Under the pieces are notes generated by a model, which saw nothing but the letters and a program-made list of their open reading frames with translations, did no database searches and was not told the origin of the DNA. Below, one piece after another: positions 24,769 to 49,463 of a DNA stretch of 64,000 nt. The position numbers were made by a program, and so were the translations under genes. Every line of letters starts with the position of its first letter. Within the stretch, counting starts at the first letter, position 1. This stretch comes from an uncultured Alphaproteobacteria bacterium. Lineage in GTDB: Bacteria; Pseudomonadota; Alphaproteobacteria; ATCC43930; CGMCC-115725. The DNA lies in assembly GCA_963729845.1 (NCBI GenBank), contig CAVSQC010000013.1, positions 23,261 through 87,260 of the forward strand, read 5' to 3'.

Positions 24769-24945
24769 ATGGCCAGCGCGCTGTTCAACGACAACAAGAT
24801 GAAGCTCGGCGTGTTCGGGCCGAATGTCAGCCACGGCTACGCGGCGACGTCGCGCGCGTGTTACCCGCCACCCGAAATGTTGCTCGTATGCTCGCGACAT
24901 TTCTTCCCTCCCCCTCAAGGGAGGGAAGGAATGCGCCGGCGATGA
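24769..24945 (+). pseudogene. N-terminal remnant of an LLM-class (luciferase-like) flavin monooxygenase
   Basis: Good SD (AAGGGGAAGG) and MASALFNDNKMKLGVFGPNVSHG, typical of LLM N-termini. After about 28 codons the ORF runs into a REP hairpin and ends. Confidence 0.45.
24903..24928. repeat. REP family C hairpin (CTTCCCTCC-CCCTCAAG-GGAGGGAAG)
   Basis: Related palindromes lie at 26636-26758, 30803-30826 and 49437-49463. Confidence 0.75.
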
Positions 24946-26553
24946 GTTTCGATTACATCGTCATCGGCGCCGGGTCGGCGGGTTGCGTCGTGGCGAGCCG
25001 CCTGAGCGAGGATCCGTCGGCGCGGGTACTACTGCTCGAGGCGGGCGGCAAGCCCGACAGTCTGTGGGTCTCGATGCCGTCGGGCGTCGGCAAGCTGATC
25101 GAGCCGAACAAATTCAACTGGGGCTACAACAGCGAGCCCGAGCCCTATCTCGGCAACCGCACCATCTACGTGCCGCGCGGCAAGGGCCTGGGCGGCTCGA
25201 GCCTGATCAACGGCATGGCCTATGTCCGCGGCCATCCGCAGGATTATGACGGCTGGCGCCAGATGGGCAATCGCGGCTGGGGCTGGGACGATGTCCTGCC
25301 CTATTTCAAGAAATCGCAGCATCGCGTCGCGGCCGGCGGGAACGCCGACCCCGCGTTTCACGGCGCCGGCGGCCGGCTTCACGTCACCGATCCGCTGCAT
25401 CATCCGGCGTCGCGCGACTTCATCGAGGCCGGCGTGCGGCTCGGCCTGCCGCGTAATCCCGACTACAACGCGGCCCAGCAGGAAGGCATCGGCTTTCTGC
25501 AATTCACCATCCGCGATGGCCGCCGTCACAGCACATCGGCCGCGTTTCTCGCCGACGCCGCGCGGCGGCCGAACCTCACGATCGCGACCGAGGCGCTGGT
25601 GCGGCGCATCGTCTTCGACGGCAAACGCGCCACCGGCGTCGAATATCGCGCGCGGCGGCGAGACGCGCATCGAGACGGCCGCGCGCGAGGTGATCCTTTG
25701 CGCGGGCGCGATCGATTCACCCAAGCTGCTGATGCTGTCGGGCATCGGCCCGGGCGCGGCGTTGCAGGAGCAGGGCATTGCCCCGGTCCACGATCTGCCC
25801 GGCGTCGGCCGCAACCTGCAGGACCATCTCTATGTCCACTACACCGCGGATTCGACACCGGACAGTTCGATCAACGCCGAACTGCATGGGCTGCGCCTGC
25901 TGTATCACGGCGCCTATTATTTGCTGACGCGGAGCGGCGTGTTGACGCTCGGCTCGTCGCAGGCCTGCGCCTGGGTGCGCATCCTGCCCGGCGCCGACCG
26001 GCCCGACCTACAGATTTTCTTCCGCCCGGTGAGCTGGGAGTTCAGCCCGTCCGGCACGCTGGAGATCGGGCGCACGCCGTCGGTCTCGGCCTCGTGCAGC
26101 CCGATCCGTCCGCATTCGCGCGGCTGGATCGGCTTGCGCTCGCCCGACCCGGCGGCGCCGGCGAAGATCGTGCCGAACTATCTCGAGGCGGTGCCCGACC
26201 GCATCGCGGCGGTGAAGGGTTTCGCCCTGATACGCCGCATCATGGCGACCGAGCCGATGAAGTCGCGCATCGTGCGCGAGCGGTTTCCCGGGCCCGATTG
26301 CGCCACCGAGGACGATATCCTCGCCCATGTCCGCAACACCGTGCAGTCGCAGCATCACTGGGCCGGCTCGTGCAAGATGGGTAACGATTCGATGGCGGTG
26401 GTGGACGACCAGTTACGCGTCCATGGCGTCGAAGGCGTGCGCGTGATCGACGCCTCGATCATGCCGACGGTTTCCGCCGGCAACACCAACGCGCCGACCA
26501 TCATGATCGGCGAAAAGGGCGCCGACCTGATCAAGGGCCGCGCCGCCGCCTGA
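24942..26553 (+). pseudogene. GMC-family oxidoreductase (choline dehydrogenase-like), frame break near 25651
   Basis: MSFDYIVIGAGSAGCVVASRL FAD motif. Continues (GGETRIETAAREVILCAGAIDSPKLL ... HWAGSCKMG) in ORF 25222-26553. Confidence 0.8.
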
Positions 26554-26635
26554 CAGTCGCCAGCATTGCTTGTATGATTCGCGCCTGCGGGGCCTAAATC
26601 GCGATGACATATTTCTGGCGAGGACTAGACTTTTC

Positions 26636-26758
26636 TCGTCCCTCCCCCCTTGAGGGGGAGCGAGGAAATGCCGAGCGTCGGCGAGGCATTTCGAGTGGGG
26701 GGTGCAAGCGCGCCATACCCCCCACCCGGTCTCAGCCTTCGGCTTCGATCTTCCCTCC
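26636..26758. repeat. Cluster of REP family C palindromes
   Basis: CCCTCCCCCCTTGAGGGGGAG and TTCCCTCCCC... units. The last unit is split by the IS insertion. Confidence 0.7.
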
Positions 26759-26766
26759 CCCTCAAG

Positions 26767-26792
26767 GGGAACTCTCACCTTGACATAACATG
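26767..26792 (+). repeat. Left terminal inverted repeat GGGAACTCTCACCTTGACATAACATG
   Basis: Exact reverse complement of 30777-30802. The boundary is ambiguous by 1-2 nt because of the G run. Confidence 0.85.
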
Positions 26793-26890
26793 ATCTACCC
26801 ATAGTGTGACCGGACATTGCGAACGTCTCGGCACTCTACGGCTGGATCGGGCAGAGGAAAAGGTGATGGTTCCCTCCTTGAGAGGGAAAC

Positions 26891-27070
26891 ATGGAAAAGG
26901 AAATCGAGATTACGCGTGAAATGAAAATCGCCGGAGCGGCCATTATTGATGCTTCTTACGGGGTGGTCGACCAGGAGTTTCTTGCTGCACAGGTTTATAG
27001 TGCCATGGTCCGTATAGCTCTTGCCAAATCTCTGGTGGCATTGCTGCGTCAGCTCTCTTCTCGGCAATAA
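26891..27070 (+). CDS. Small hypothetical protein (59 aa, below the ORF-track cutoff)
   Basis: ATG preceded by GAGAGGGAAAC. MEKEIEITREMKIAGAAIIDASYGVVDQEFLAAQVYSAMVRIALAKS looks like a folded helical protein. It overlaps the 3' end of the opposite-strand ORF by 128 nt. Confidence 0.4.
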   Translation: MEKEIEITREMKIAGAAIIDASYGVVDQEFLAAQVYSAMVRIALAKSLVALLRQLSSRQ

Positions 27071-27527
27071 CCGCGATACGAATAGCTATCGCGCGCAAAT
27101 CCCGCGCAGCCGCACGAATGTCGTTTACGTTAAAATGAGTGACCTCGTAGTGCGCCGCTGTTTTCGCGGTATGAAGATTTTTTATGCGAGGGCCGTCTGA
27201 TGTAATCTCAAGCGTTCTGTGATTTAGGCGGTCTCGTAGCTCGCCGATTAGATTGTATTGGGTAGCAAGGAGGTCAAATTCGGCTTGGTCCGACTTGCCG
27301 ATTTCCAACAAATATCTGGTGATGGATATAACGTCAGATACGCGCTGGCCGCCAAAGATAGCGCGCGCGCGTGTCATGTCGGTTCCAGATTGTAGTTTGC
27401 ACAGAGTATTGAAGAGATTTCCGACAGTGGCGTATCTCTCACTCAAATGGCCTAACGCATGATATAATTCAGCGTCAGGGTCATCCTTAATTGCTGGTGG
27501 TGCCAGCGGAGGATTTATCGACGACAT
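26943..27527 (-). CDS. Hypothetical all-helical protein with an Rx4H (HEPN-like) motif
   Basis: 194 aa from ATG 27527 (ORF extends to TTG 27539). ELRDRLNHR matches the HEPN Rx4-6H signature in a helix-rich context. Long ORF in AT-rich DNA. Confidence 0.6.
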   Translation of the reverse strand: MSSINPPLAPPAIKDDPDAELYHALGHLSERYATVGNLFNTLCKLQSGTDMTRARAIFGGQRVSDVISITRYLLEIGKSDQAEFDLLATQYNLIGELRDRLNHRTLEITSDGPRIKNLHTAKTAAHYEVTHFNVNDIRAAARDLRAIAIRIAVIAEKRADAAMPPEIWQELYGPWHYKPVQQETPGRPPRKKHQ

Positions 27528-27738
27528 GCGTGCGCCCAAGAAAGTACAGAAAACCGGAAGCGAAATCCGCTCCGATGCTTGGGAGCGATTCGTGATGGCT
27601 GTGGGCTACGCGGTCAAGACCCCAGCGATGCACCGCGAAAGCAAGAAAGAGCGGCCAGCGAGTAAGGGGCGCGTACGTAAGGGCAAGAGTTCGTGCTTAA
27701 AACAGCGCGCCTATTTGTTGTTTTTATCTCAGTACTAA
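27526..27738 (+). CDS. Small basic hypothetical protein (70 aa), doubtful
   Basis: Its ATG shares a CATG with the divergent ORF start. Its 3' end overlaps the GTG-start signal peptide of the protease, so only one of the two models can be fully right. Confidence 0.25.
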   Translation: MRAPKKVQKTGSEIRSDAWERFVMAVGYAVKTPAMHRESKKERPASKGRVRKGKSSCLKQRAYLLFLSQY

Positions 27739-28623
27739 TTGCCCACTCGGCCGTAAGCGCGGTTCTCCCGCCATTTATGTTGGATTGTGTCGTCGCGCTC
27801 GGTGGGATGGGCAATATCAATCCCCCCGATAAGCCGCCCAACATTCAATGGATAACGATTGGTACGGGATTCTTTTATGCCTACAAGACTGTCGATGATC
27901 CGGACCCGAAAAAACGGAAATATCAAGTCTACCTCGTCACGGCGGGGCATGTGATTTCGGAATTTTTAGAAACGAACAAGGGCGATTTATCCGTGAGGAT
28001 AAATTTGAAAGATCCATCTCAGCCCGCTCAAGACATTTAATATTCCCAGAAAACCGCCAACTGGCGAATCAACGTGGTTCTTCCATCCAAAATATCGCCA
28101 AGGTGTTGCTGATAATGATATTGCAGCAGTTTCAATTCGGTGGGATTCGATCAAGGATTTGGGTGTCGCCTATATTTTGAGCGATATACAGACTGCCGAC
28201 ATTGAGAAGCTAAAAGCCCTCAAAATTTCCGCCGGAGATGGAGCCTTTGTTCTTGGGTTTCCTTTGCAACTCGCGGGGGTACAACGCAGTTACGTTATCG
28301 TGCGAAACGGGATTGTCGCACGAGTAAGTGACATGCTTGACCATACCTCTGGGACATTTCTCATGGACTCCTTTGTATTCCCCGGGAACAGCGGAAGCCC
28401 TGCCATTCTCAGACCGGAAATAGTATCAATTGAAGGTACGTCAGCAAATAATGCGGCGTATCTCATGGGAATTGTCGAAGGCTATTTGGCCTATTCAGAC
28501 ATTGCGATAAGTATGCAGACGCATCACCAGCGTATCACCTTTGAGGAAAATTCCGGGCTGGCAGAAATAATCCCCATGGATCGCGTGAATGAGGCCATCA
28601 AGGCGAGCGGGACATTGCCCTAG
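27693..28623 (+). pseudogene. Trypsin-like (S1/Trypsin_2) serine protease, probably exported, frame break near 28030
   Basis: Sec-type signal MLKTARLFVVFISVLIAHSAVSA. Catalytic triad contexts are TAGHVI, NDIAAV (readable only in the frame of 28159) and GNSGSP. Alternative cytoplasmic start at ATG 27777. Confidence 0.75.
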
Positions 28624-28913
28624 CTTTTACTGTTTGAATTCAAAGCTTTGAAAATTTCTTGAGCCGATATCTCCACGATTTTACCGCTATCGAAAATTAC
28701 TCTCATTCCTGTCAACTGGGTTAGATCAAGCACAGCCCAGTCCGGCATTTGAGAGATACCGCATGGGACATATTTTTCCGCCCCGCTCGCATCGCGTCCA
28801 TCGGCACAATAGGGACCGGATGATCCGCTGTCGGCGGCTTTCGCCATCATCCCCGGGATCAATGCTAGCGATGTAACCGACAGGATAGCGGAGCGCCGAT
28901 TTAATTTGCTCAT
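28620..28913 (-). CDS. Small exported protein (97 aa), unknown function
   Basis: Signal peptide with an RR motif (MSKLNRRSAILSVTSLALIPGMMAKA). Two Cys in the mature part. Its stop overlaps the protease stop (CTAG). Confidence 0.55.
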   Translation of the reverse strand: MSKLNRRSAILSVTSLALIPGMMAKAADSGSSGPYCADGRDASGAEKYVPCGISQMPDWAVLDLTQLTGMRVIFDSGKIVEISAQEIFKALNSNSKS

Positions 28914-29046
28914 AACAAACCCCTCGCATAAATTGCTCTTTGCGACGGGAAGGCTCCTGTCATCTCAGGCGGATCGGAAGTCCGCCGTACATCGTTGCCA
29001 CATAGCCGCATCGTGTACGCCCCTAGGCTACACGAACGGAATTGCT

Positions 29047-29424
29047 ATGTCCCCACTTTTTCAGGTTTGTGGTCGCTGTCCTTGCCGGACGCCTTTTCTG
29101 GCGAGTCCCGAAAATATACGGGCCGCACGGGAATTGCACTTTGTGGACCCACTGGACGATGGAATTAAAGAGATTGTCATTACCCTGATCGCCCACGGAA
29201 TTGAGACCTCGGAATCATGCGAGGGCGGTCCTGGTCATGCCTTCCCGGAACCCACAGTAAGATTCGAGGGCGATCAGCCTGAGGGGCTTAGGGCAGTTTC
29301 GGTCGCTTTAGCGTACGGGTTTCCAGTCACTCGGCTACGTCGCGCATGGGCGATAAAGGATGGGCTACTGCATGGACCGTGGTGGGAGATGACATTTGCC
29401 CCGCACAAGCCCATGCAGCAATAA
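29047..29424 (+). CDS. Hypothetical protein (125 aa) with N-terminal CGRCPC motif
   Basis: In-frame ATG within ORF 28906-29424. I recognise no family. Confidence 0.45.
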   Translation: MSPLFQVCGRCPCRTPFLASPENIRAARELHFVDPLDDGIKEIVITLIAHGIETSESCEGGPGHAFPEPTVRFEGDQPEGLRAVSVALAYGFPVTRLRRAWAIKDGLLHGPWWEMTFAPHKPMQQ

Positions 29425-29779
29425 GATCAGTTGCCCTTACGAGTTTCTTCCTGACATACGGTACACAGGCGATAGCCGCCGGTTCCCGCGCGCCGCTCAT
29501 GCTGGGGGATGTCTCGCCCCCGGAGCGCATGCGCTATTGTTGTGATGGACCTGTTGATTAGCAGGCTTCTTGCTTTCGTTGATTGAGTAAAATGCAGGCA
29601 CTACTGGCATGGTCGTTTCCTCGATTCCTGGCTAGGCGGCGCTCGCTCTTAGCTCGAACATAAGTAGGACTCCGCAACTTGAGCGAGTCAAGCGAATGAT
29701 AAGGGCCTACTTTTCCATGAATAGAAAGGCTAGTTGCCCTTCAGCCTCTAACCTTTCCCACTCGCGCGGCGGCGCGGGC

Positions 29780-30736
29780 CTACGCCTGATTGCGGTTTTC
29801 TTGCTCGCCGCAAGTCCGCCGATAAGTGAGACGGCGACCGACGATCCCCGGTAATGATTTCTGGAAGCGCTCGAAATCCGACACCTTCAACCCTTCACGT
29901 TCGTTGTAGCGGTAATCGAACTCGCCGAGATAGCGCTTCAGGTGTTGAGCGCTGACGCTGTGATAGGTGCCGGTGATCCCGCGTTTCAGGATCGAGAAAT
30001 AGCCTTCAATCGTGTTCGTGTGCGCGTCGCCGCGAACATACTCACCGATTGAGTGATTGACCTTCTGATGTTTCGGAAAATCGCGGTGCAGGTTGCGGTT
30101 CTCGCCCGCGTCATCCGTCATCAAGGCCGCGTCCATACTCAACTGTTCGTTCAAGATCGGGCGCAATGTGTCGGCGCTCACCGAAGGAACATGACGGGAG
30201 CGGACCTTGCCCTTGCGCTCGACCAGTGAATAGACAATCTCCTTGCCAGCGCCGCCGACCGCGCTGGTGCGCTTGTCGCGGTGCTTGTTCTTTTCCTTCC
30301 CACCAACATAGGTCGCGTCGCCCTCAACCGCCTTACCGCCGCCACCCATCTGCTCCAACACACGCGGCGGCAGGCTTTCACGGATACGGTGCATTAGGAA
30401 CCAAGACGACTTTTTGCTGATCCCGAGCAAGCGGCCAATTTCGAGCGAGCTAATGCCCTTCTTGCCAGCCATCAGCAATTGCGTTGCGGCGAGCCATTTG
30501 TGTAGCGGGATTTTGCTGCGCTCGTACAGGGTGCCGACTGTGACGGTGAACGGCTCGCGGCAAGCATTGCACTGGTAGAGGCCGGGACGATGGCTTTCGC
30601 CTTTTAGCAAGGTGGAATTGTCCACCACGCCACAATGCGGGCAGAACCGACCATGCGCCCAGATTTGCGCTTCCAGCCATTCGCGGGCCGCTTCCTCGTT
30701 GTGGAAGATCGGGTTTGACAAAAGTGCTTCGGACAT
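29780..30736 (-). CDS. IS1595-family transposase (zinc ribbon + ISXO2-like DDE domain)
   Basis: Uninterrupted 318 aa. N-terminal CPHCG...CNAC zinc ribbon, HKWLAATQLL, DATYVGGKEKNKH. The start is 41 nt inside the right IR. Confidence 0.9.
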   Translation of the reverse strand: MSEALLSNPIFHNEEAAREWLEAQIWAHGRFCPHCGVVDNSTLLKGESHRPGLYQCNACREPFTVTVGTLYERSKIPLHKWLAATQLLMAGKKGISSLEIGRLLGISKKSSWFLMHRIRESLPPRVLEQMGGGGKAVEGDATYVGGKEKNKHRDKRTSAVGGAGKEIVYSLVERKGKVRSRHVPSVSADTLRPILNEQLSMDAALMTDDAGENRNLHRDFPKHQKVNHSIGEYVRGDAHTNTIEGYFSILKRGITGTYHSVSAQHLKRYLGEFDYRYNEREGLKVSDFERFQKSLPGIVGRRLTYRRTCGEQENRNQA

Positions 30737-30776
30737 GCTCGGCTCCCTTGAATGAGGCCGATTACATCATGTTGTG

Positions 30777-30802
30777 CATGTTATGTCAAGGTGAGAGTTC
30801 CC
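30777..30802 (-). repeat. Right terminal inverted repeat
   Basis: Exact reverse complement of 26767-26792. Confidence 0.85.
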
Positions 30803-30836
30803 CCCTCAAGGGGGGAAGGGGAATCTAGGAGATGCC

Positions 30837-32670
30837 GTGACCGCAGCGCGCCGCCTGGCCGCAATTCTCGCCGTCGATGTCGCGGGCTATTCGCGGCTCA
30901 TGGGCGAGGACGAGGCCGGCACGGCCAAGGCCGTGCGCGAGCATCGCGAGGCGGCGCGGCCGGTGGTGCAGGGGCTTGGCGGCCGCATCGTCAAGACCAT
31001 GGGCGACGGCGTGCTGTTGGAATTTCCCTCGGTGGTCGCCGCCGTCGAATGCGCCATCGCCCTGCAGAAACTCATGGTCGGCCGTAATGCCGACGTGCCC
31101 GAGGGCAAGCGCATCGTCTATCGCATCGGCGTCCATCTCGGCGACGTGCTGATCGACGGCGACGATATTTTGGGCGACGGCGTCAACATCGCGGCGCGCC
31201 TCGAAGCCATCGCCGCGCCGGGCGGCATCTGTCTCTCCGGCATGGCGTATGAGTCCGTGCGCGGCAAGGTCGAGGCGGACTTCACCGATCTCGGCGAGCG
31301 CGAGTTGAAGAACATCGCCCGGCCCGTGCGGGTTTATGCGAGCGCGCCTCAAGACACTTCCGTCGTCCCCGCGAAAGCGGGGACCCAGGGCGACCGTGCG
31401 TCGCTAACCCTGATTCCCGCTTACGCGGGAATGACGAAAGTGGGGCGATGGCGCAAAAGGAAAATTCGCCGCCCCGTCTCTCCATCGTCGTGCTGCCGTT
31501 TGCCAATATTGGCGGCGACCCGGAGCAGGAATATTTCGTCGACGGCGTCACCGAGATCGCTCACTACCGACCTGTCACGCATCTCGGGAAGTTTCGTGAT
31601 CGCGCGCAACACGGCATTCACGTTCAAGAGCAAGCCGGTCGACGTGAAACAGATCGGGCGCGAGTTGAACGTGCGCTACCTCCTCGAAGGCTCGGTGCAG
31701 CGCGGCGGCAACCGCATGCGTGTCAACGTGCAGCTCATCGAAGCCGAGACCGGCATTCATCTTTGGGCCGAGCGCTTCGATAAGCCGGTGGCCGATCTCT
31801 TCGACATGCAAGACGAGATCGTTGCGTATCTTGCTAACCAGTTGAACACGCAACTCGTCGTTGCCGAGGCCCGTCGCGCGGAGCGGGCGCCGCTTCCCGA
31901 TTCGATGGACCTCTATTTCCAAGGCACTGCCTGCTTTCACAAGGGGTATAACCCCGAAAACCTCGCACAAGCACGCCGCTATTTCGAACGCGCCCTGGCG
32001 CTCGATCCCAACAATATCGAGGCGTTGGCGGGCGAGGCGCTGGTTGATGTTGTTATTGGCGGCGGTGTGATGAGCGAAGATCGCGTTCTCCGTATCGCCG
32101 CCGCTGAAGCTGCCGCAAACAAGGTGCTGTCAGTGGCACCGAACCACGCCCCCGCTCATTACATTTTGGGCTTTGTCCATATTGTTACCAACCGCGCGGC
32201 GCAGGGCATGGCCGAGTGCGAGCATGCGCTGGCATTAGACCGATAACCTAGCCGCAGCCCATGCGATGATAGGCCTCGCGAAATCCGTCCTTGGACGCGC
32301 GGAGGAAACGGAGGGCCATGTCCGCGAAGCGCTCCGGCTTAGCCCACGAGAAATTACCGCCAATTCGTGGATGCACCTCGCCGGCGGCGCCAAACTGGTT
32401 CTCGGCAGGGACCAAGAAGCGGTTGCCTGGCTGCGCCGGTCCATTGAGGCCAACCGAACTTACCCTCTCGCGCATTTCTATCTCGCCGCTGCCTTGGTTC
32501 ATCTCGACCGATTGGAGGAGGCGCGGGCCTCCGTGCAGACAGGACTGGTGCTGGATCCGACCTTCACCATCCGCCGCTACCGCGCAGGCGCATCGAGCGA
32601 CAATCCGACCTATCTGGCGCAGCGCGAACACATCTATGACGGCATGCGCAAGGCCGGGGTCCCGGAGGGT
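30837..32670 (+). pseudogene. Class III adenylate/guanylate cyclase domain + TolB-like + TPR protein, disrupted by a REP and frame breaks
   Basis: RRLAAILAVDVAGYSRLM ... GDGVNIAARLE cyclase domain. REP-B inside the linker. PRLSIVVLPFANIGGDPEQEYFVDGVTE is out of frame (own ATG at 31448). Breaks at 31556 and 32244. No stop after ...GVPEG. Confidence 0.75.
31361..31438. repeat. REP family B copy inside the cyclase reading frame
   Basis: Inverted copy of 5568-5646, translated as VVPAKAGTQGDRASLTLIPAYAGMTK. Confidence 0.8.
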
Positions 32671-32688
32671 GAGCCCGAAAAGCCCGCG

Positions 32689-33890
32689 CCGCCGCGCCTC
32701 TCCATCGTCGTGCTGCCCTTCGCCAATCTCGGCGGCGACCCGGAGCAGGAATATTTCGTCGACGGCGTCACCGAGATCGCTCACTACCGACCTGTCACGC
32801 ATCTCGGGCAAGTTTCGTGATCGCGCGCAACACGGCGTTTACCTACAAGGGCAAGCCTGTCGACGTGAAGCAGATCGGCCGCGACCTCAATATCCGCTAC
32901 GTCCTCGAAGGCTCGGTGCAGCGCGGCGGCAACCGCATGCGGGTCAATGTCCAGCTCATCGACGCCGAGACCGGCAACCACCTTTGGGCCGAGCGTTTCG
33001 ACAAGCCGGTCGCCGACCTCTTCGACATGCAGGACGAAATCGTCGCCCGCCTGGCGAATCAACTGAACGCCGAACTGATCGAAGCGGAAGCGCGGCGCGC
33101 CGAAAAAAAGCCAAATCCCAATTCAATGGATTTCTATTTCCAGGGGCGGGCTTGGTTGAACAAAGGCATCGCACCCGCCAATCTGACGCCAGCCGGTAAT
33201 TTCCTCGAACGGGCACTGGCACTCGACCCCGACAATGTGGAAGCGTTGGTCGCAACGGCATACCTTCGCGCGCTTCGCGCAGCAGCACGGCTGGCGGACG
33301 ACGTGACAACGTCGCTATCGGTCGCTGAAGAAAATTTGAACCGCGCTCTTATTATCGCACCGGACTATGCCCAGGCGCATCACGCCCTCGGCACGGTGTA
33401 CAACTCCACCAAACGCGCCGCGCTGGGCTTGTCCGAATGCGAACACGCGTTGACCCTCGACCGCAATTTAGCCATCGCTTATGGCGGCATGGGCCGCTCC
33501 AAATTATTGCTCGGTCGAGCCGAGGAAACGGAAAATCATGTGTTGGAAGCGCTCCGTCTCAGCCCGCGCGACAGTCTGGCCTTTGCCTGGATGAATGTCG
33601 CCGGTTATGCGAAATTGCTTCTCGGGCGCGATGAAGAGGCCATTGTGTGGCTGCGCCGCAGCATCGACAGAAATCGCAATCTGAACAATTCGCACTATTG
33701 GCTCGCCGTTGCGTTGACTCGGCTTGGACGGACCGAGGAAGCAAAGGCCGCCGCGCAGATCGCGCGCCAACTTAATCCCGACTTCGTCAAACGCTTGCGG
33801 TCGGATGTTTGGAGCGACGACCCGGTCTACCTCGCTCAATTTGAGCGGGTCATGGACGGTCTCCGCGCGGCGGGGTTGCCGGAAGGATAG
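32689..33890 (+). pseudogene. Tandem duplicate of the TolB-like + TPR module (no cyclase domain, no own start), two frame breaks
   Basis: PPRLSIVVLPFANLGGDPEQEYFVDGVTE / SLTTDLSRISG / FVIARNTAFTYKGKPVDVKQIGRDL... Breaks at 32776 and 32809. Ends at ...AAGLPEG TAG. Confidence 0.7.
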
Positions 33891-47716: not shown

Positions 47717-49453
47717 ATGAGAGACGCCGTCGCCCGTTTGATGAAGCCGCGCTCGGTCGCGATCGTCGGCGTGTCGCCGGAGCCGGGCCAGCCTGGCGGT
47801 AACATCGTCGGCAATCTCGACAAGGCCGGCTTCGCCGGCGCGCTGCATCTCGTCAGCCGCAACCGCACCGAGGTGTTCGGCCGGCCGTGCGTGCGCACCA
47901 TCGACGATCTGCCCGACGGCATCGACGTGGTGGTGCTGTGCATCCCCGAACGCGCGGTGGTCGAGGCGGTCGAGGCCTGCGCCAAGAAGCGCATGGGCAA
48001 TGTGATGATCTTCGCCGCCGGCTTCGCCGAGGTCGGCGGCGACGGGCTGGCGGCGCAGCAGCGCGTCGCCGCGGTCGCGCGCGCCGCCGGCATGGGCATC
48101 ATCGGGCCGAACTGCCTCGGCGTGACCAATTCGCTCGAAGGCGGACAGGCGCTGACCTTCGGTGCGTCGGAGGCACGCAAGGTGACGGGCGAGCGGCCGA
48201 CCCTCGCCATCGTCGCGCAAAGCGGCGCGCTCGCCGGCATCTTCCGCGTCGCGATCCAGAATCGCGGCCTGCCGGTGTCGTACAGCGTGTCTTCGGGCAA
48301 CGAGGCGGTGCTCACCGCCGAGGATTATCTCGATTACACGCTCGACGATCCGGCGGTCGGCGTGGTCGCGCTCTATGTCGAGCAATTGCGCGACCCGACG
48401 CGCTTCCTCGGGCTCGCGGCACGTGCCCGCCGCCTCAAGAAGCCGATCGTGATGCTGCATGCCGGCTCGAGCGCGATCGCGCGCGAGTCCGCGATCACCC
48501 ACACCTACTCCATCACCAAGAACTACCGTGCCATGCGCGCGTTGACGGCGCGGGCCGGGGTGGTGCTGGTCGACAAGATCGAGGAGCTGCTCGATACCGC
48601 TGAACTGTTCCTCTATTTCCCGACGCCGCCGACGATGGGGCCTGCGGTGATGGCGGATTCCGGCGCGTACAAAGGCCTGGCGCTCGATTACGCCGAGAAG
48701 ATCGGCATCGAACTGCCGAAATTCTCGCCGCATATCCACGAGGCGCTGGTGCCGGTGATGCCGGTCTACGCGCCGCCGGCCAATCCGCTCGACATGACCG
48801 CGCAGGCGATCAAGGAGCCGGAAATGTACGACAAGTCGCTGCCGCTGATGCTGTCCGACCCGCGCATCGGGAGTTTGGTGCTGGCGCCGATCATGGGCGC
48901 GACCGGTTTCGGCTTCGCCAAGGGCGAGCGCATCCTCAATGCCGTCAAAGGCGCGACCAAGCCCGTGATCATGAGCAATCTCGGCTTCGACAATCCGATG
49001 CCGCCGGAATTCATCGCCGCGTGCCGCTCGCGTGGCATTCCCTATTTCAATTCGCCCGATCGTGCGCTGCGCGCCGTCGCCTATCTCGCCCAGTACGCCC
49101 GCGCGCTGGCGCGGCCCGTAACGCCGCCCGCCGCCGGCGCCTTCACCGCGCCGCCCAAGCCCGCGCCCGACGCGCTCCAACTCCGGGTGAAGGCGGTCCG
49201 CGATCCGGAATGGGGTCCGATCCTCGAAATCGGTTTCGGCGGCACGCGGGGCGAGGCGCTGCCGGAGACCATCGTTCTGCCGCCCGATCTCGCACCCGCC
49301 GATATCGAAGCCGAACTGCGCACGCTTCCTGGTGCTACGTTGTTCGTTGGCCGCGATCTCGGCGCGGCAAGCGCGACGATTGCGCAAATCGGCGCCGCGC
49401 TGCGGGGTGGCGGAACGATCATGACAGAAGTCGCAATTCCCCTCCCCCCTTGA
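47717..49453 (+). CDS. Acetate--CoA ligase family paralog with a shortened C-terminal ATP-grasp region
   Basis: PRSVAIVGVSPEPG ... aligns by eye with 10672-12777 for about 480 aa. The C-terminal part is roughly 90 aa shorter and runs into a REP. Confidence 0.75.
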   Translation: MRDAVARLMKPRSVAIVGVSPEPGQPGGNIVGNLDKAGFAGALHLVSRNRTEVFGRPCVRTIDDLPDGIDVVVLCIPERAVVEAVEACAKKRMGNVMIFAAGFAEVGGDGLAAQQRVAAVARAAGMGIIGPNCLGVTNSLEGGQALTFGASEARKVTGERPTLAIVAQSGALAGIFRVAIQNRGLPVSYSVSSGNEAVLTAEDYLDYTLDDPAVGVVALYVEQLRDPTRFLGLAARARRLKKPIVMLHAGSSAIARESAITHTYSITKNYRAMRALTARAGVVLVDKIEELLDTAELFLYFPTPPTMGPAVMADSGAYKGLALDYAEKIGIELPKFSPHIHEALVPVMPVYAPPANPLDMTAQAIKEPEMYDKSLPLMLSDPRIGSLVLAPIMGATGFGFAKGERILNAVKGATKPVIMSNLGFDNPMPPEFIAACRSRGIPYFNSPDRALRAVAYLAQYARALARPVTPPAAGAFTAPPKPAPDALQLRVKAVRDPEWGPILEIGFGGTRGEALPETIVLPPDLAPADIEAELRTLPGATLFVGRDLGAASATIAQIGAALRGGGTIMTEVAIPLPP

Positions 49454-49463
49454 GGGGCTTCCC
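49437..49463. repeat. REP family C unit
   Basis: TTCCCCTCCCCCCTTGAGGGGCTTCCC. Confidence 0.65.

What the first reader, a model, noticed from the sequence alone, without database searches (positions are those of the whole stretch)
26759..30810. AT-rich 4.0-kb IS1595-family transposon with perfect 26-bp IRs, an 8-bp target duplication and about 3 kb of passenger genes
GGGAACTCTCACCTTGACATAACATG (26767-26792) recurs as an exact reverse complement at 30777-30802. CCCTCAAG flanks both ends (26759-26766 and 30803-30810); the boundaries are ambiguous by 1-2 nt because of G/C runs. Base composition inside is clearly AT-richer than the GC-rich flanks. The only transposition gene is one intact 318-aa zinc-ribbon + DDE (ISXO2-like) transposase at the right end. 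The other ~3 kb encodes 5-6 unrelated ORFs. IS1595-family elements make 8-bp duplications. As I recall from the ISfinder family description, some subgroups first described in Nitrobacter carry passenger genes. The perfect IRs and intact duplication argue for a recent, possibly still mobile, acquisition.
Basis: partly seen in the sequence, partly recalled or inferred. Interest (0 to 1): 0.75.

Follow-up and report, generated by a model that had tools for sequence, protein, structure and literature searches.

The report
IS1595-family transposon carrying passenger genes
This is a real 4.0-kb jumping gene of a known type (an IS1595-family "transporter IS") inserted in the middle of a small DNA palindrome, and its relatives in soil bacteria turn out to share a three-gene core and often carry anti-phage defence genes.

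Summary
Perfect 26-bp inverted repeats (26767-26792 / 30777-30802) and an 8-bp duplication CCCTCAAG bound a 4036-bp segment of 53% GC in 64-69% GC DNA. Its 318-aa protein is an intact zinc-ribbon + DDE IS1595-family transposase.

I recovered 38 further complete relatives, 1.9-5.4 kb long, nearly all with an 8-bp duplication. This is a known kind, a "transporter IS".

- About 1.1 kb of the "passenger" DNA is lineage core. A ~57-aa basic protein is present in 39/39 elements. It sits head-to-head with a fast-evolving Rx4H (HEPN-like) protein in 21/39.
- The variable cargo holds a trypsin-like protease matching the defence candidate PDC-S45, which is frameshifted. Relatives carry restriction-modification systems, PD-Lambda-5, PDC-M24B and PDC-S59. 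At least 13/39 carry such cargo.
- Insertions prefer the centre of palindromes, with duplication consensus C-Y-N4-R-G. Here the target is a REP-like hairpin.

"Recent and still mobile" is not shown. Three other assemblies carry the same insertion, I found no empty site, and some cargo genes are frameshifted.

Verdict: ordinary in kind, moderately interesting as a lineage.

The parts
26749..26766 (.). Left half of the target palindrome. Its last 8 nt (26759-26766, CCCTCAAG) are the left copy of the target-site duplication.
   Evidence: (I4/I6). The reconstructed empty site TTCCCTCCCCCTCAAGGGGGGAAGGGG folds as a 9-bp GC stem with the duplication at its apex.
26767..26792 (+). Terminal inverted repeat at the end far from the transposase gene.
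   Evidence: The 19-nt core GGGAAYTNTCACCTTGACA is shared with 38 related elements.
26891..27070 (+). 59-aa ORF (MEKEIEIT...). It overlaps the 3' end of the Rx4H gene on the opposite strand. Function unknown.
   Evidence: It is conserved in L129 at 53% identity, E 4e-13. Because the two ORFs overlap, part of that conservation could come from the other strand.
26943..27527 (-). 194-198-aa Rx4H (HEPN-like) protein, the lineage-typical partner of the small ORF. Its ATG overlaps the small ORF's ATG within CATG at 27525-27528. An upstream TTG start at 27539 is also possible.
   Evidence: There are 282 representative clusters at E<1e-3. R102 and H107 are invariant. The AlphaFold2 model has pLDDT 91. 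The family profile hits partner genes in other elements. Only sub-threshold HEPN Pfam hits were found.
27526..27738 (+). Small basic protein, 70 aa here and 57 aa in L005. Motif: RSDAWERFVMAVGYAVKTPAMHR followed by a Lys/Arg tail. It is the second universally conserved gene of the lineage.
   Evidence: An HMM finds it in 39/39 complete elements, convergent with the transposase in 37. There is no Pfam or NCBIfam family for it. The extra T at 27690 lengthens the C-terminus in the window only.
27693..28623 (+). Trypsin-like serine protease with an N-terminal hydrophobic segment. It is interrupted by one frameshift near 28040.
   Evidence: The frame-corrected protein scores Trypsin_2 28.9 bits (cut-off 27.6) and Trypsin 24.3 bits (cut-off 20.6). 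It matches PADLOC PDC-S45 at 2.1e-16. The same frameshift is present in L005 and L008.
28620..28913 (-). 97-aa ORF with a signal-peptide-like N-terminus (MSKLNRRSAILSV...). Function unknown.
   Evidence: It was found only in copies of this same element.
29047..29424 (+). 125-aa conserved hypothetical protein. This is the short form of the 172-aa ORF that starts at 28906.
   Evidence: More than 500 homologues at 55-83% identity, no Pfam family. A homologue lies in element L052. The AlphaFold2 model has pLDDT 80 with no significant PDB match.
29427..29609 (-). Remnant of a 60-aa Cys-rich protein, convergent with the 125-aa gene. It is frameshifted in the window by an extra C at 29517 and intact in L005.
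   Evidence: There is a weak DksA/TraR-type zinc-finger hit, E 0.0026.
29780..30736 (-). Intact 318-aa IS1595-family transposase with a zinc ribbon and a DDE domain.
   Evidence: Across 14 homologues (38-100% identity), C32, C35, C56, C59, D140, E244 and K251 are invariant. D208 is conserved in 13 of 14.
30747..30789 (-). Promoter-like site for the transposase, partly inside the inverted repeat: TTGACA, 17 nt, TGTAAT. A GGGAG ribosome-binding site follows.
   Evidence: Read from the sequence. It was not reported by the consensus scan because the -10 hexamer has G at position 2. This is inference only.
30777..30802 (-). Terminal inverted repeat next to the transposase gene.
30803..30821 (.). 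Right copy of the duplication (30803-30810, CCCTCAAG) and the right half of the target palindrome.

Best explanation
The segment 26767-30802 is a transporter IS (tIS) of the IS1595 family.

Ends and insertion (shown). A single zinc-ribbon/DDE transposase is encoded at one end. It presumably recognises the two 26-bp terminal repeats. Insertion made the 8-bp staggered-cut duplication typical of the family.

Target (inferred from comparison). The element landed at the apex of a REP-like GC-rich palindrome between a GMC-oxidoreductase gene and an adenylate-cyclase/TPR gene. This lineage prefers such sites. Its duplications follow C-Y-N4-R-G and often lie at the centre of a hairpin.

Three layers of content.
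- The transposase.
- A module conserved across the lineage: a ~57-aa basic protein, convergent with the transposase, head-to-head with a fast-evolving Rx4H (HEPN-like) protein. I infer a regulatory or addiction-type role for this module. That is not shown.
- A variable slot between the transposase and the small ORF. Here it holds a frameshifted PDC-S45-like trypsin-type protease, a secreted-looking 97-aa ORF, and a conserved 125-aa + 60-aa gene pair.

Cargo in relatives and turnover. In relatives the same slot holds restriction-modification and other defence systems. So the lineage acts as a small self-mobile carrier of defence-type genes. The conserved ends could serve as homology arms for cargo exchange; that is inference.

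State of this copy. The transposase and both ends are intact, but current activity is not demonstrated.
For: - Boundaries: repeats and duplication are exact and unique in the window.
- Foreign composition.
- Family: transposase domains score above curated cut-offs. Cys4, D140, E244 and K251 are invariant, and D208 is conserved in 13 of 14.
- Relatives: 38 further complete elements are bounded by the same repeat core. Their 8-bp duplications differ from site to site.
- No bare IS: all 39 elements are 1.9-5.4 kb. A bare element over 1.0 kb would have been detected.
- Small ORF: present in 39/39. The 25 metagenome elements are an independent test of the HMM.
- Rx4H partner: present in 21/39. Twelve form one phmmer cluster, and the o198-family profile reaches others. 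R and H are invariant.
- Module conserved elsewhere: the same small ORF / Rx4H protein / 59-aa ORF trio occurs next to different cargo in L129.
- Cargo identities.
- Target preference: 7/14 and then 15/38 insertions lie at the centre of a perfect stem of at least 6 bp. Fisher combined p is 8e-8 on the first 14. Duplication position 1 is C in 30/39 and position 8 is G in 33/39.
- Independent case: L002, a different element from a different contig, sits in the same kind of palindrome with the same CCCTCAAG duplication.
- Concept: tIS are described for the IS1595 and IS66 families (bioRxiv 10.1101/2021.05.26.445724; PMC3129680 citing Siguier et al. 2009).
Against: - No empty site was found, and there is no second copy in the window. 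Movement of this particular copy is therefore inferred from anatomy only.
- The insertion is shared at the same site by L005, L006 and L007, so it is not demonstrably recent.
- The protease is frameshifted in three assemblies. The 60-aa gene and the small ORF's C-terminus carry indels found only in the window.
- The HEPN assignment rests on the invariant Rx4H motif and a helical model. No Pfam, PDB-profile or Foldseek match is significant.
- The role of the small ORF is unknown.
- PDC systems are PADLOC candidates, not validated defences.
- The sample of relatives was selected by a repeat pattern, so only this repeat type was sampled.
Confidence: 0.9

Rival explanations
1. It is a tIS by origin but is now a fixed, decaying resident. 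On this view it was inherited vertically, or spread between strains by homologous recombination of the whole locus, and is no longer transposing. It would be neither recent nor mobile.
For: - The same insertion, with the same duplication, is present in L005 (99.2% over 10 kb), L006, and the more diverged or poorer L007.
- There is only one copy in 64 kb.
- The protease frameshift is shared by three assemblies. The window adds two further indels.
- Low divergence extends roughly 1 kb to the left and 4.4 kb to the right of the element. That is what a recombination tract carrying the locus would look like.
Against: - The transposase ORF is full length with all conserved residues.
- Both 26-bp repeats are identical and the duplication is intact.
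- The element differs from L005 at only 5 of 4036 positions. The left flank differs at 122 of 4981 and the right flank at 29 of 4690.
- The window-only indels may be assembly errors. The neighbouring GMC-oxidoreductase gene is also split in the window but intact in L005.
Confidence: 0.4
2. The 4-kb element is a nested composite. On this view a ~2.3-kb three-gene element (transposase, small ORF, Rx4H gene) later received one or more separate mobile cassettes between the transposase and the small ORF. The inner genes would then not be cargo captured by the IS itself.
For: - The commonest size class in the lineage is 2.3-2.8 kb, with just these three genes.
- The 125-aa + 60-aa pair occurs widely outside this lineage, in other mobile-looking neighbourhoods.
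- GC differs within the element: 46-52% in the protease region against 57-60% over the transposase.
Against: - No internal repeats, duplications or second recombinase mark a nested element.
- In other elements cargo lies on either side of the small ORF.
- The outcome is still a single unit bounded by one pair of repeats and one duplication.
Confidence: 0.25
3. The repeats are a REP-type genomic repeat and the inner genes are native. On this view the transposase lies between two REP copies by coincidence.
For: The flanks do contain REP-like palindromes.
Against: - The 26-mer occurs only twice in the window.
- It always borders a homologous transposase in unrelated genomes, each time with its own 8-bp duplication.
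- The REP-like palindrome is the target, split by the insertion. It is not the repeat itself.
- Composition inside is foreign.
Confidence: 0.01

Closest known systems
IS1595-family transporter IS (tIS). These are IS with passenger genes, first defined by Siguier, Gagnevin & Chandler 2009. From memory, ISfinder lists an ISNwi1 subgroup with passenger-carrying derivatives of about 1.75-4.75 kb.
   Same: One zinc-ribbon + DDE transposase, terminal inverted repeats, an 8-bp duplication, and extra genes inside a single IS-like unit. The size of 4.0 kb fits. The repeat start in relatives, GGGAATTAT, fits my recollection of the subgroup's end consensus.
   Different: Subgroup membership is untested because I have no ISfinder sequences. 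This element's own repeat start is GGGAACTCT. None of the texts I could open describes the universal ~57-aa ORF, its Rx4H partner, the palindrome-centred targeting or the defence-type cargo.
IS1397 / ISKpn1 (IS3 family) and other REP-targeting IS
   Same: Insertion into the central part of REP-like palindromes in intergenic DNA.
   Different: A different transposase family with different chemistry. Here only about 40% of insertions are in clear palindromes, and the preference can also be described by sequence as C-Y-N4-R-G. The comparison rests on my own knowledge and not on a test.
Tn7-like transposons with defence cargo (Benler et al. 2021, PMC8649781)
   Same: A transposon lineage whose variable cargo is rich in restriction-modification and other defence systems.
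   Different: Tn7-like elements are large and use several transposition proteins and an attachment site. This lineage is 2-5 kb, has one transposase, and carries one or two cargo systems.
HEPN toxin/abortive-infection modules
   Same: An invariant R-(N/D/H/Q)-x3-H motif in a mostly helical ~200-aa protein. The gene evolves fast and lies on a mobile element beside a small partner gene.
   Different: There is no significant profile or fold match to any HEPN family. The partner is not an MNT-type antitoxin. No toxicity or RNase data exist.

Membership tests
IS1595 family (ISfinder/NCBIfam) | Transposase with the ISXO2-like DDE domain (PF12762 / NF033547) | tested here: met
   PF12762 at 2.2e-36, 125.6 bits against a cut-off of 27. 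NF033547 at 7.7e-50, 169.7 bits against a cut-off of 75.
IS1595 family (ISfinder/NCBIfam) | N-terminal transposase zinc ribbon (PF12760) | tested here: met
   PF12760 at 1.2e-10, 41.6 bits against a cut-off of 25.4. C32, C35, C56 and C59 are invariant in 14 homologues.
IS1595 family (ISfinder/NCBIfam) | Conserved D, D, E plus a downstream basic residue | tested here: met
   D140, E244 and K251 are invariant. D208 is conserved in 13 of 14. Their catalytic role is inferred, not tested.
IS1595 family (ISfinder/NCBIfam) | Terminal inverted repeats and an 8-bp target duplication | tested here: met
   26/26-bp repeats and the CCCTCAAG duplication. In the first set of 14 elements (the window's plus 13 relatives), 11 duplications are perfect, one has a single mismatch and two are shifted in register. 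Of 27 metagenome pairs, 23 have perfect 8-bp duplications.
ISNwi1 subgroup of IS1595 | Transposase clusters with ISNwi1, and the ends match the subgroup consensus | not testable with these tools
The repeat start in relatives, GGGAATTAT, agrees with the consensus I recall. That is a lead only.
Transporter IS (tIS) | IS-like unit (one transposase, one repeat pair, one duplication) that also carries genes unrelated to transposition | tested here: met
   Seven further ORFs lie within the 4036 bp. The definition is in bioRxiv 10.1101/2021.05.26.445724.
HEPN superfamily (for ORF 26943-27527) | Conserved Rx4-6H motif | tested here: met
   R102 and H107 are invariant in 81 homologues and in 18 partner proteins from other elements.
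HEPN superfamily (for ORF 26943-27527) | Significant profile or fold match to a recognised HEPN family | tested here: not met
   There are no Pfam hits above threshold. Sub-threshold HEPN hits occur in 2/81 and 3/18 members. The PDB profile search and Foldseek give nothing significant.
PADLOC candidate system PDC-S45 (for the protease) | Match to the PDC-S45 profile | tested here: met
   2.1e-16 and 57.7 bits over profile positions 37-249 of 293, for the frame-corrected protein.
PADLOC candidate system PDC-S45 (for the protease) | Intact gene | tested here: not met
   One frameshift near 28040 splits the gene into 115-aa and 154-aa ORFs. It is shared with L005 and L008.

The most novel reading that the evidence does not exclude
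This element may represent an uncharacterised IS1595 lineage with three properties.

- Its core is three genes, not one: the transposase, a ~57-aa basic protein, and a fast-evolving Rx4H (HEPN-like) protein arranged head-to-head with overlapping start codons.
- It targets the apex of REP-like palindromes.
- It serves as a minimal, self-mobile shuttle for restriction-modification and anti-phage systems in soil bacteria.

On this reading the small-ORF/Rx4H pair would act as an addiction or regulatory module. It would keep the element in place or control its transposition.
Probability: 0.35. Interest if true: 0.6.

Novelty: new member of a known kind. Interest (0 to 1): 0.4.

Why it matters
For this window the practical result is an annotation. 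It gives a bounded, foreign 4.0-kb mobile element inserted in a REP-like hairpin, with its genes named as far as evidence allows.

The wider point is that very small single-transposase elements can move defence-type genes. Across 39 elements the same two ends and the same small gene frame a slot. That slot holds type II and IIG restriction-modification systems, PD-Lambda-5, and several PADLOC candidate systems.

If the conserved small protein and its Rx4H partner prove to control or stabilise the element, that would add a new accessory function to a family thought to need only a transposase. The cargo slot would also be a compact place to look for new defence genes.

Tried and rejected
- **Source contig.** Exact look-ups of the window's transposase and of the adenylate-cyclase protein in the contig index found nothing. 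The source contig and organism therefore remain unnamed. An alphaproteobacterial origin is only inferred, from GC content and from the hosts of relatives.
- **Empty site.** A gapped pattern spanning the reconstructed junction found 0 hits in JGI metagenomes.
- **Function of the Rx4H protein.** Pfam, NCBIfam and PADLOC gave nothing. The PDB profile search gave nothing. Foldseek of a pLDDT-91 model against PDB and BFVD gave no hit at E<=0.001.
- **Function of the 125-aa protein.** There is no family, and Foldseek found nothing significant.
- **Small ORF.** It has only 13 word-index homologues, all unnamed.
- **Non-coding RNA.** Rfam found no family in the whole window.
- **Promoters.** The consensus promoter/terminator scan showed no enrichment.
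- **Literature.** The ISNwi1 descriptions and the 2014 IS review are not held in the library. No paper links HEPN or defence cargo with IS1595.
- **Plasmids.** The nearest transposases are at most 47% identical.
- **Viral contigs.** There is one repeat match in 2.9 million contigs, so the lineage is not phage-borne.
- **Rejected: the 26-mer is a REP variant**.
- **Rejected: the window's Rx4H protein and L001's 214-aa protein are unrelated.** BLASTP sees nothing, but profile links and the shared motif register connect the partner genes.

Full report
**Observation**

- GGGAACTCTCACCTTGACATAACATG at 26767-26792 is repeated as a perfect reverse complement at 30777-30802. The repeat finder extends it to 27 nt because of the adjoining G/C.
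- Allowing three mismatches, the 26-mer occurs at these two places only in the 64-kb window. Shuffled sequence gives none.
- CCCTCAAG lies directly outside both ends, at 26759-26766 and 30803-30810.
- GC falls from 64-69% in the flanks to 46-58% inside. The element as a whole is 53% GC.

**The transposase**

The ORF 29780-30736 on the minus strand encodes 318 aa.
- It matches PF12762 (ISXO2-like DDE, 2.2e-36) and PF12760 (IS1595 zinc ribbon, 1.2e-10).
- It matches NCBIfam NF033547, "IS1595 family transposase" (7.7e-50). All three scores are above the curated cut-offs.
- I aligned it with 13 homologues of 38-91% identity. The four zinc-ribbon cysteines (C32, C35, C56, C59), D140, E244 and K251 are invariant. 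D208 is conserved in all but one.
- A TTGACA-17 nt-TGTAAT promoter-like site begins inside the adjacent repeat and is followed by GGGAG and the ATG. I read this. The consensus scan did not report it, so it is inference.

**Relatives prove a mobile unit**

- A 91%-identical transposase (L001) lies in a 5.4-kb element with the same repeat core. That element carries a type IIG restriction-modification enzyme.
- An 81%-identical transposase (L002) lies in a 4.5-kb element with three unknown genes.
- I scanned one genome per species with the repeat core. I then scanned JGI metagenomes with the commonest 19-mer form.
- The two scans and the transposase look-ups yielded 38 further complete elements. 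With the window's element that makes 39.
- All 39 are 1.9-5.4 kb long. Nearly all have a perfect 8-bp duplication that differs from site to site.
- No bare element of about 1.1 kb was found, although anything over 1.0 kb would have been detected.
- This is the known category "transporter IS", which a TnCentral preprint says is restricted to the IS1595 and IS66 families. The concept goes back to Siguier et al. 2009 (cited).
ISfinder is not available and the relevant reviews are not held.

**Not all inner genes are passengers**

*The small ORF*
- All-against-all comparison of ORFs in the first 14 elements found one small ORF in every element. In the window it is 27526-27738(+).
- Its motif is RPDAWERFERAVDAAVKSGPKHR followed by a Lys/Arg-rich tail.
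- An HMM built from those 14 copies found it in all 25 independent metagenome elements. It is convergent with the transposase in 37 of 39.
- It has no Pfam or NCBIfam family and only 13 unnamed homologues in the word-index search.
- Between the window and L001, a 124-nt stretch within this ORF is 88% identical, against 83% for the transposase DNA. The surrounding cargo is unrelated.

*Its Rx4H partner*
- Head-to-head with the small ORF lies a ~200-aa gene. In the window this is 26943-27527(-). The two ATGs overlap in CATG at 25525-27528 of the window, i.e. 27525-27528.
- This gene belongs to a real family of 282 representative clusters at E<1e-3.
- R102 and H107 are invariant, forming an Rx4H motif.
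- The AlphaFold2 model is confident and mostly helical (pLDDT 91).
- In 21 of 39 elements the gene in this position carries R-(N/H/D/Q)-x3-H.
- Twelve of these 21 form one phmmer cluster. The window family's profile reaches five more proteins, in and outside that cluster.
- An alignment of 18 of them keeps only that R and that H invariant.
- The best outside homologue (L129) has the same trio next to different cargo: small ORF, Rx4H protein and a 59-aa MEKE... ORF.

*How far the HEPN label goes*
- The motif and the fast evolution suggest a HEPN-type protein.
- Only sub-threshold HEPN Pfam hits appear, in 2/81 and 3/18 members.
- PDB profile searches and Foldseek give nothing significant.
- I therefore call it HEPN-like and treat any toxin, addiction or regulatory role as inference.

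**The variable slot in the window (about 27.7-29.6 kb)**

- *Trypsin-like protease, 27693-28623.* It is interrupted by one frameshift near 28040.
  - When the two frames are joined it passes the Pfam thresholds for Trypsin_2 and Trypsin.
  - The joined protein matches the PADLOC candidate PDC-S45 at 2.1e-16.
  - The frameshift is shared with L005 and with the Logan assembly L008. It is therefore probably real.
- *97-aa ORF with a signal-like N-terminus, 28620-28913(-).* It is known only from copies of this element.
- *125-aa protein, 29047-29424.* It comes from a large unnamed family of more than 500 hits at 55-83% identity. Its model has no structural match.
- *60-aa Cys-rich ORF, convergent with the 125-aa gene.* It is intact in L005 but frameshifted in the window by an extra C at 29517. 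This gene pair also occurs outside the lineage.
- The neighbouring GMC-oxidoreductase gene is also split in the window but intact in L005. Window-only indels may therefore be assembly errors.

**Cargo in relatives**

The same slot, or the side beyond the small ORF, holds:
- a type IIG restriction-modification enzyme (1e-269);
- an EcoRI-type methylase with a type II restriction enzyme (1.4e-119);
- methylase-Mrr fusions;
- a D12 methylase with PD-Lambda-5_A (8.7e-174);
- PDC-M24B proteins in four to six elements (four above the reporting threshold, plus the weakly scoring L023 protein and its unscanned homologue in L078);
- PDC-S59;
- a methylase with a PRTase-like protein.

At least 13 of 39 elements carry such genes, and only the largest cargo proteins were scanned. 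PDC systems are candidates, not validated defences. The repeat is almost absent from viral contigs: one hit in 2.9 million.

**Target choice**

- Removing the element and one duplication copy restores TTCCCTCCCCCTCAAGGGGGGAAGGGG. This is a GC-rich hairpin with the duplication at its apex.
- Similar palindromes lie at 26640-26660 and 49438-49457.
- L002, a different element on another contig, sits in the same kind of palindrome with the same CCCTCAAG duplication.
- Across the first 14 elements, 7 insertions lie at the centre of a perfect stem of at least 6 bp. Background positions reach this in at most 1.6% of cases each. Fisher combined p is 8e-8.
- Across 38 elements the count is 15.
- Duplications follow C-Y-N4-R-G. 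Position 1 is C in 30/39 and position 8 is G in 33/39. CTAATTAG recurs.

**How recent, how mobile**

- The same insertion with the same duplication is present in L005 (99.2% identity over 10 kb) and in L006. It is also in L007, whose right half is much more diverged or poorly assembled.
- Against L005 the element differs at 5 of 4036 positions. The left flank differs at 122 of 4981 and the right flank at 29 of 4690.
- The low-divergence tract extends about 1 kb to the left and 4.4 kb to the right of the element. This fits a shared recent tract, possibly spread by homologous recombination, as well as it fits a recent insertion.
- No empty site was found in JGI metagenomes.
- The transposase and ends are intact, so the element may be active. 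That is not shown.

**Verdict**

The finding is real and correctly classified: a new member of a known kind, an IS1595-family transporter IS.

The added value is at lineage level: a three-gene core, palindrome-centred insertion and defence-type cargo. I could not find these described, and I cannot exclude that ISfinder curators already know them.

Noticed in passing
window 24858-26553: The GMC-family oxidoreductase gene left of the element is split into two overlapping ORFs (24858-26384 and 25222-26553). The orthologue in L005 is a single 536-aa gene. This is either a pseudogene or an assembly indel. It is a reason to distrust indels seen only in the window.
   Followed up: partly
window 30837-33100: The adenylate-cyclase/TPR gene right of the element is 469 aa in the window but 1016 aa in L005. 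Segments 31467-31825 and 32687-33046 resemble each other (about 89% to the paralogous L005 positions), which suggests internal repeats or a frameshift.
   Followed up: no
window 26640-26660, 49438-49457 (also 24911-24922 with one mismatch): Further copies of the REP-like palindrome CCCTCCCCC(C)TTGAGGGGG. This is the same motif that was split by the insertion. One copy lies only about 100 bp left of the element in inverted orientation, giving a BIME-like pair.
   Followed up: partly
L067 1-2184 (Bradyrhizobium sp. MAG): One element of the lineage is inserted immediately next to the terminal repeat of another copy. The arrangement is tandem or nested.
   Followed up: no
L007 2679-4429 vs window 30061-31825: L007 is 98% identical to the window over the left flank and cargo. 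From the middle of the transposase rightwards it is only about 80% identical, with many gaps. It is either a recombinant allele or a poorly polished or chimeric long-read contig.
   Followed up: partly
L130-L136 (JGI metagenome contigs): The conserved 125-135-aa protein and its convergent 55-60-aa Cys-rich partner form a widespread gene pair outside this IS lineage. It lies beside HipA_2, DUF3037, P63C and IS3-type genes, and in L135 near a Trypsin_2 protease.
   Followed up: partly
window 27525-27528: The start codons of the small ORF (+) and the Rx4H gene (-) overlap within the palindrome CATG. Each gene's promoter must therefore lie inside the other gene. The head-to-head overlap recurs in L001 and other elements.
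   Followed up: partly
L018, L139, L145, L157, L194, L231: Several independent insertions share the duplication CTAATTAG within a longer palindrome of the form GTC-CTAATTAG-GAC. This suggests a second preferred target motif besides the GC-rich REP-like hairpin.
   Followed up: no
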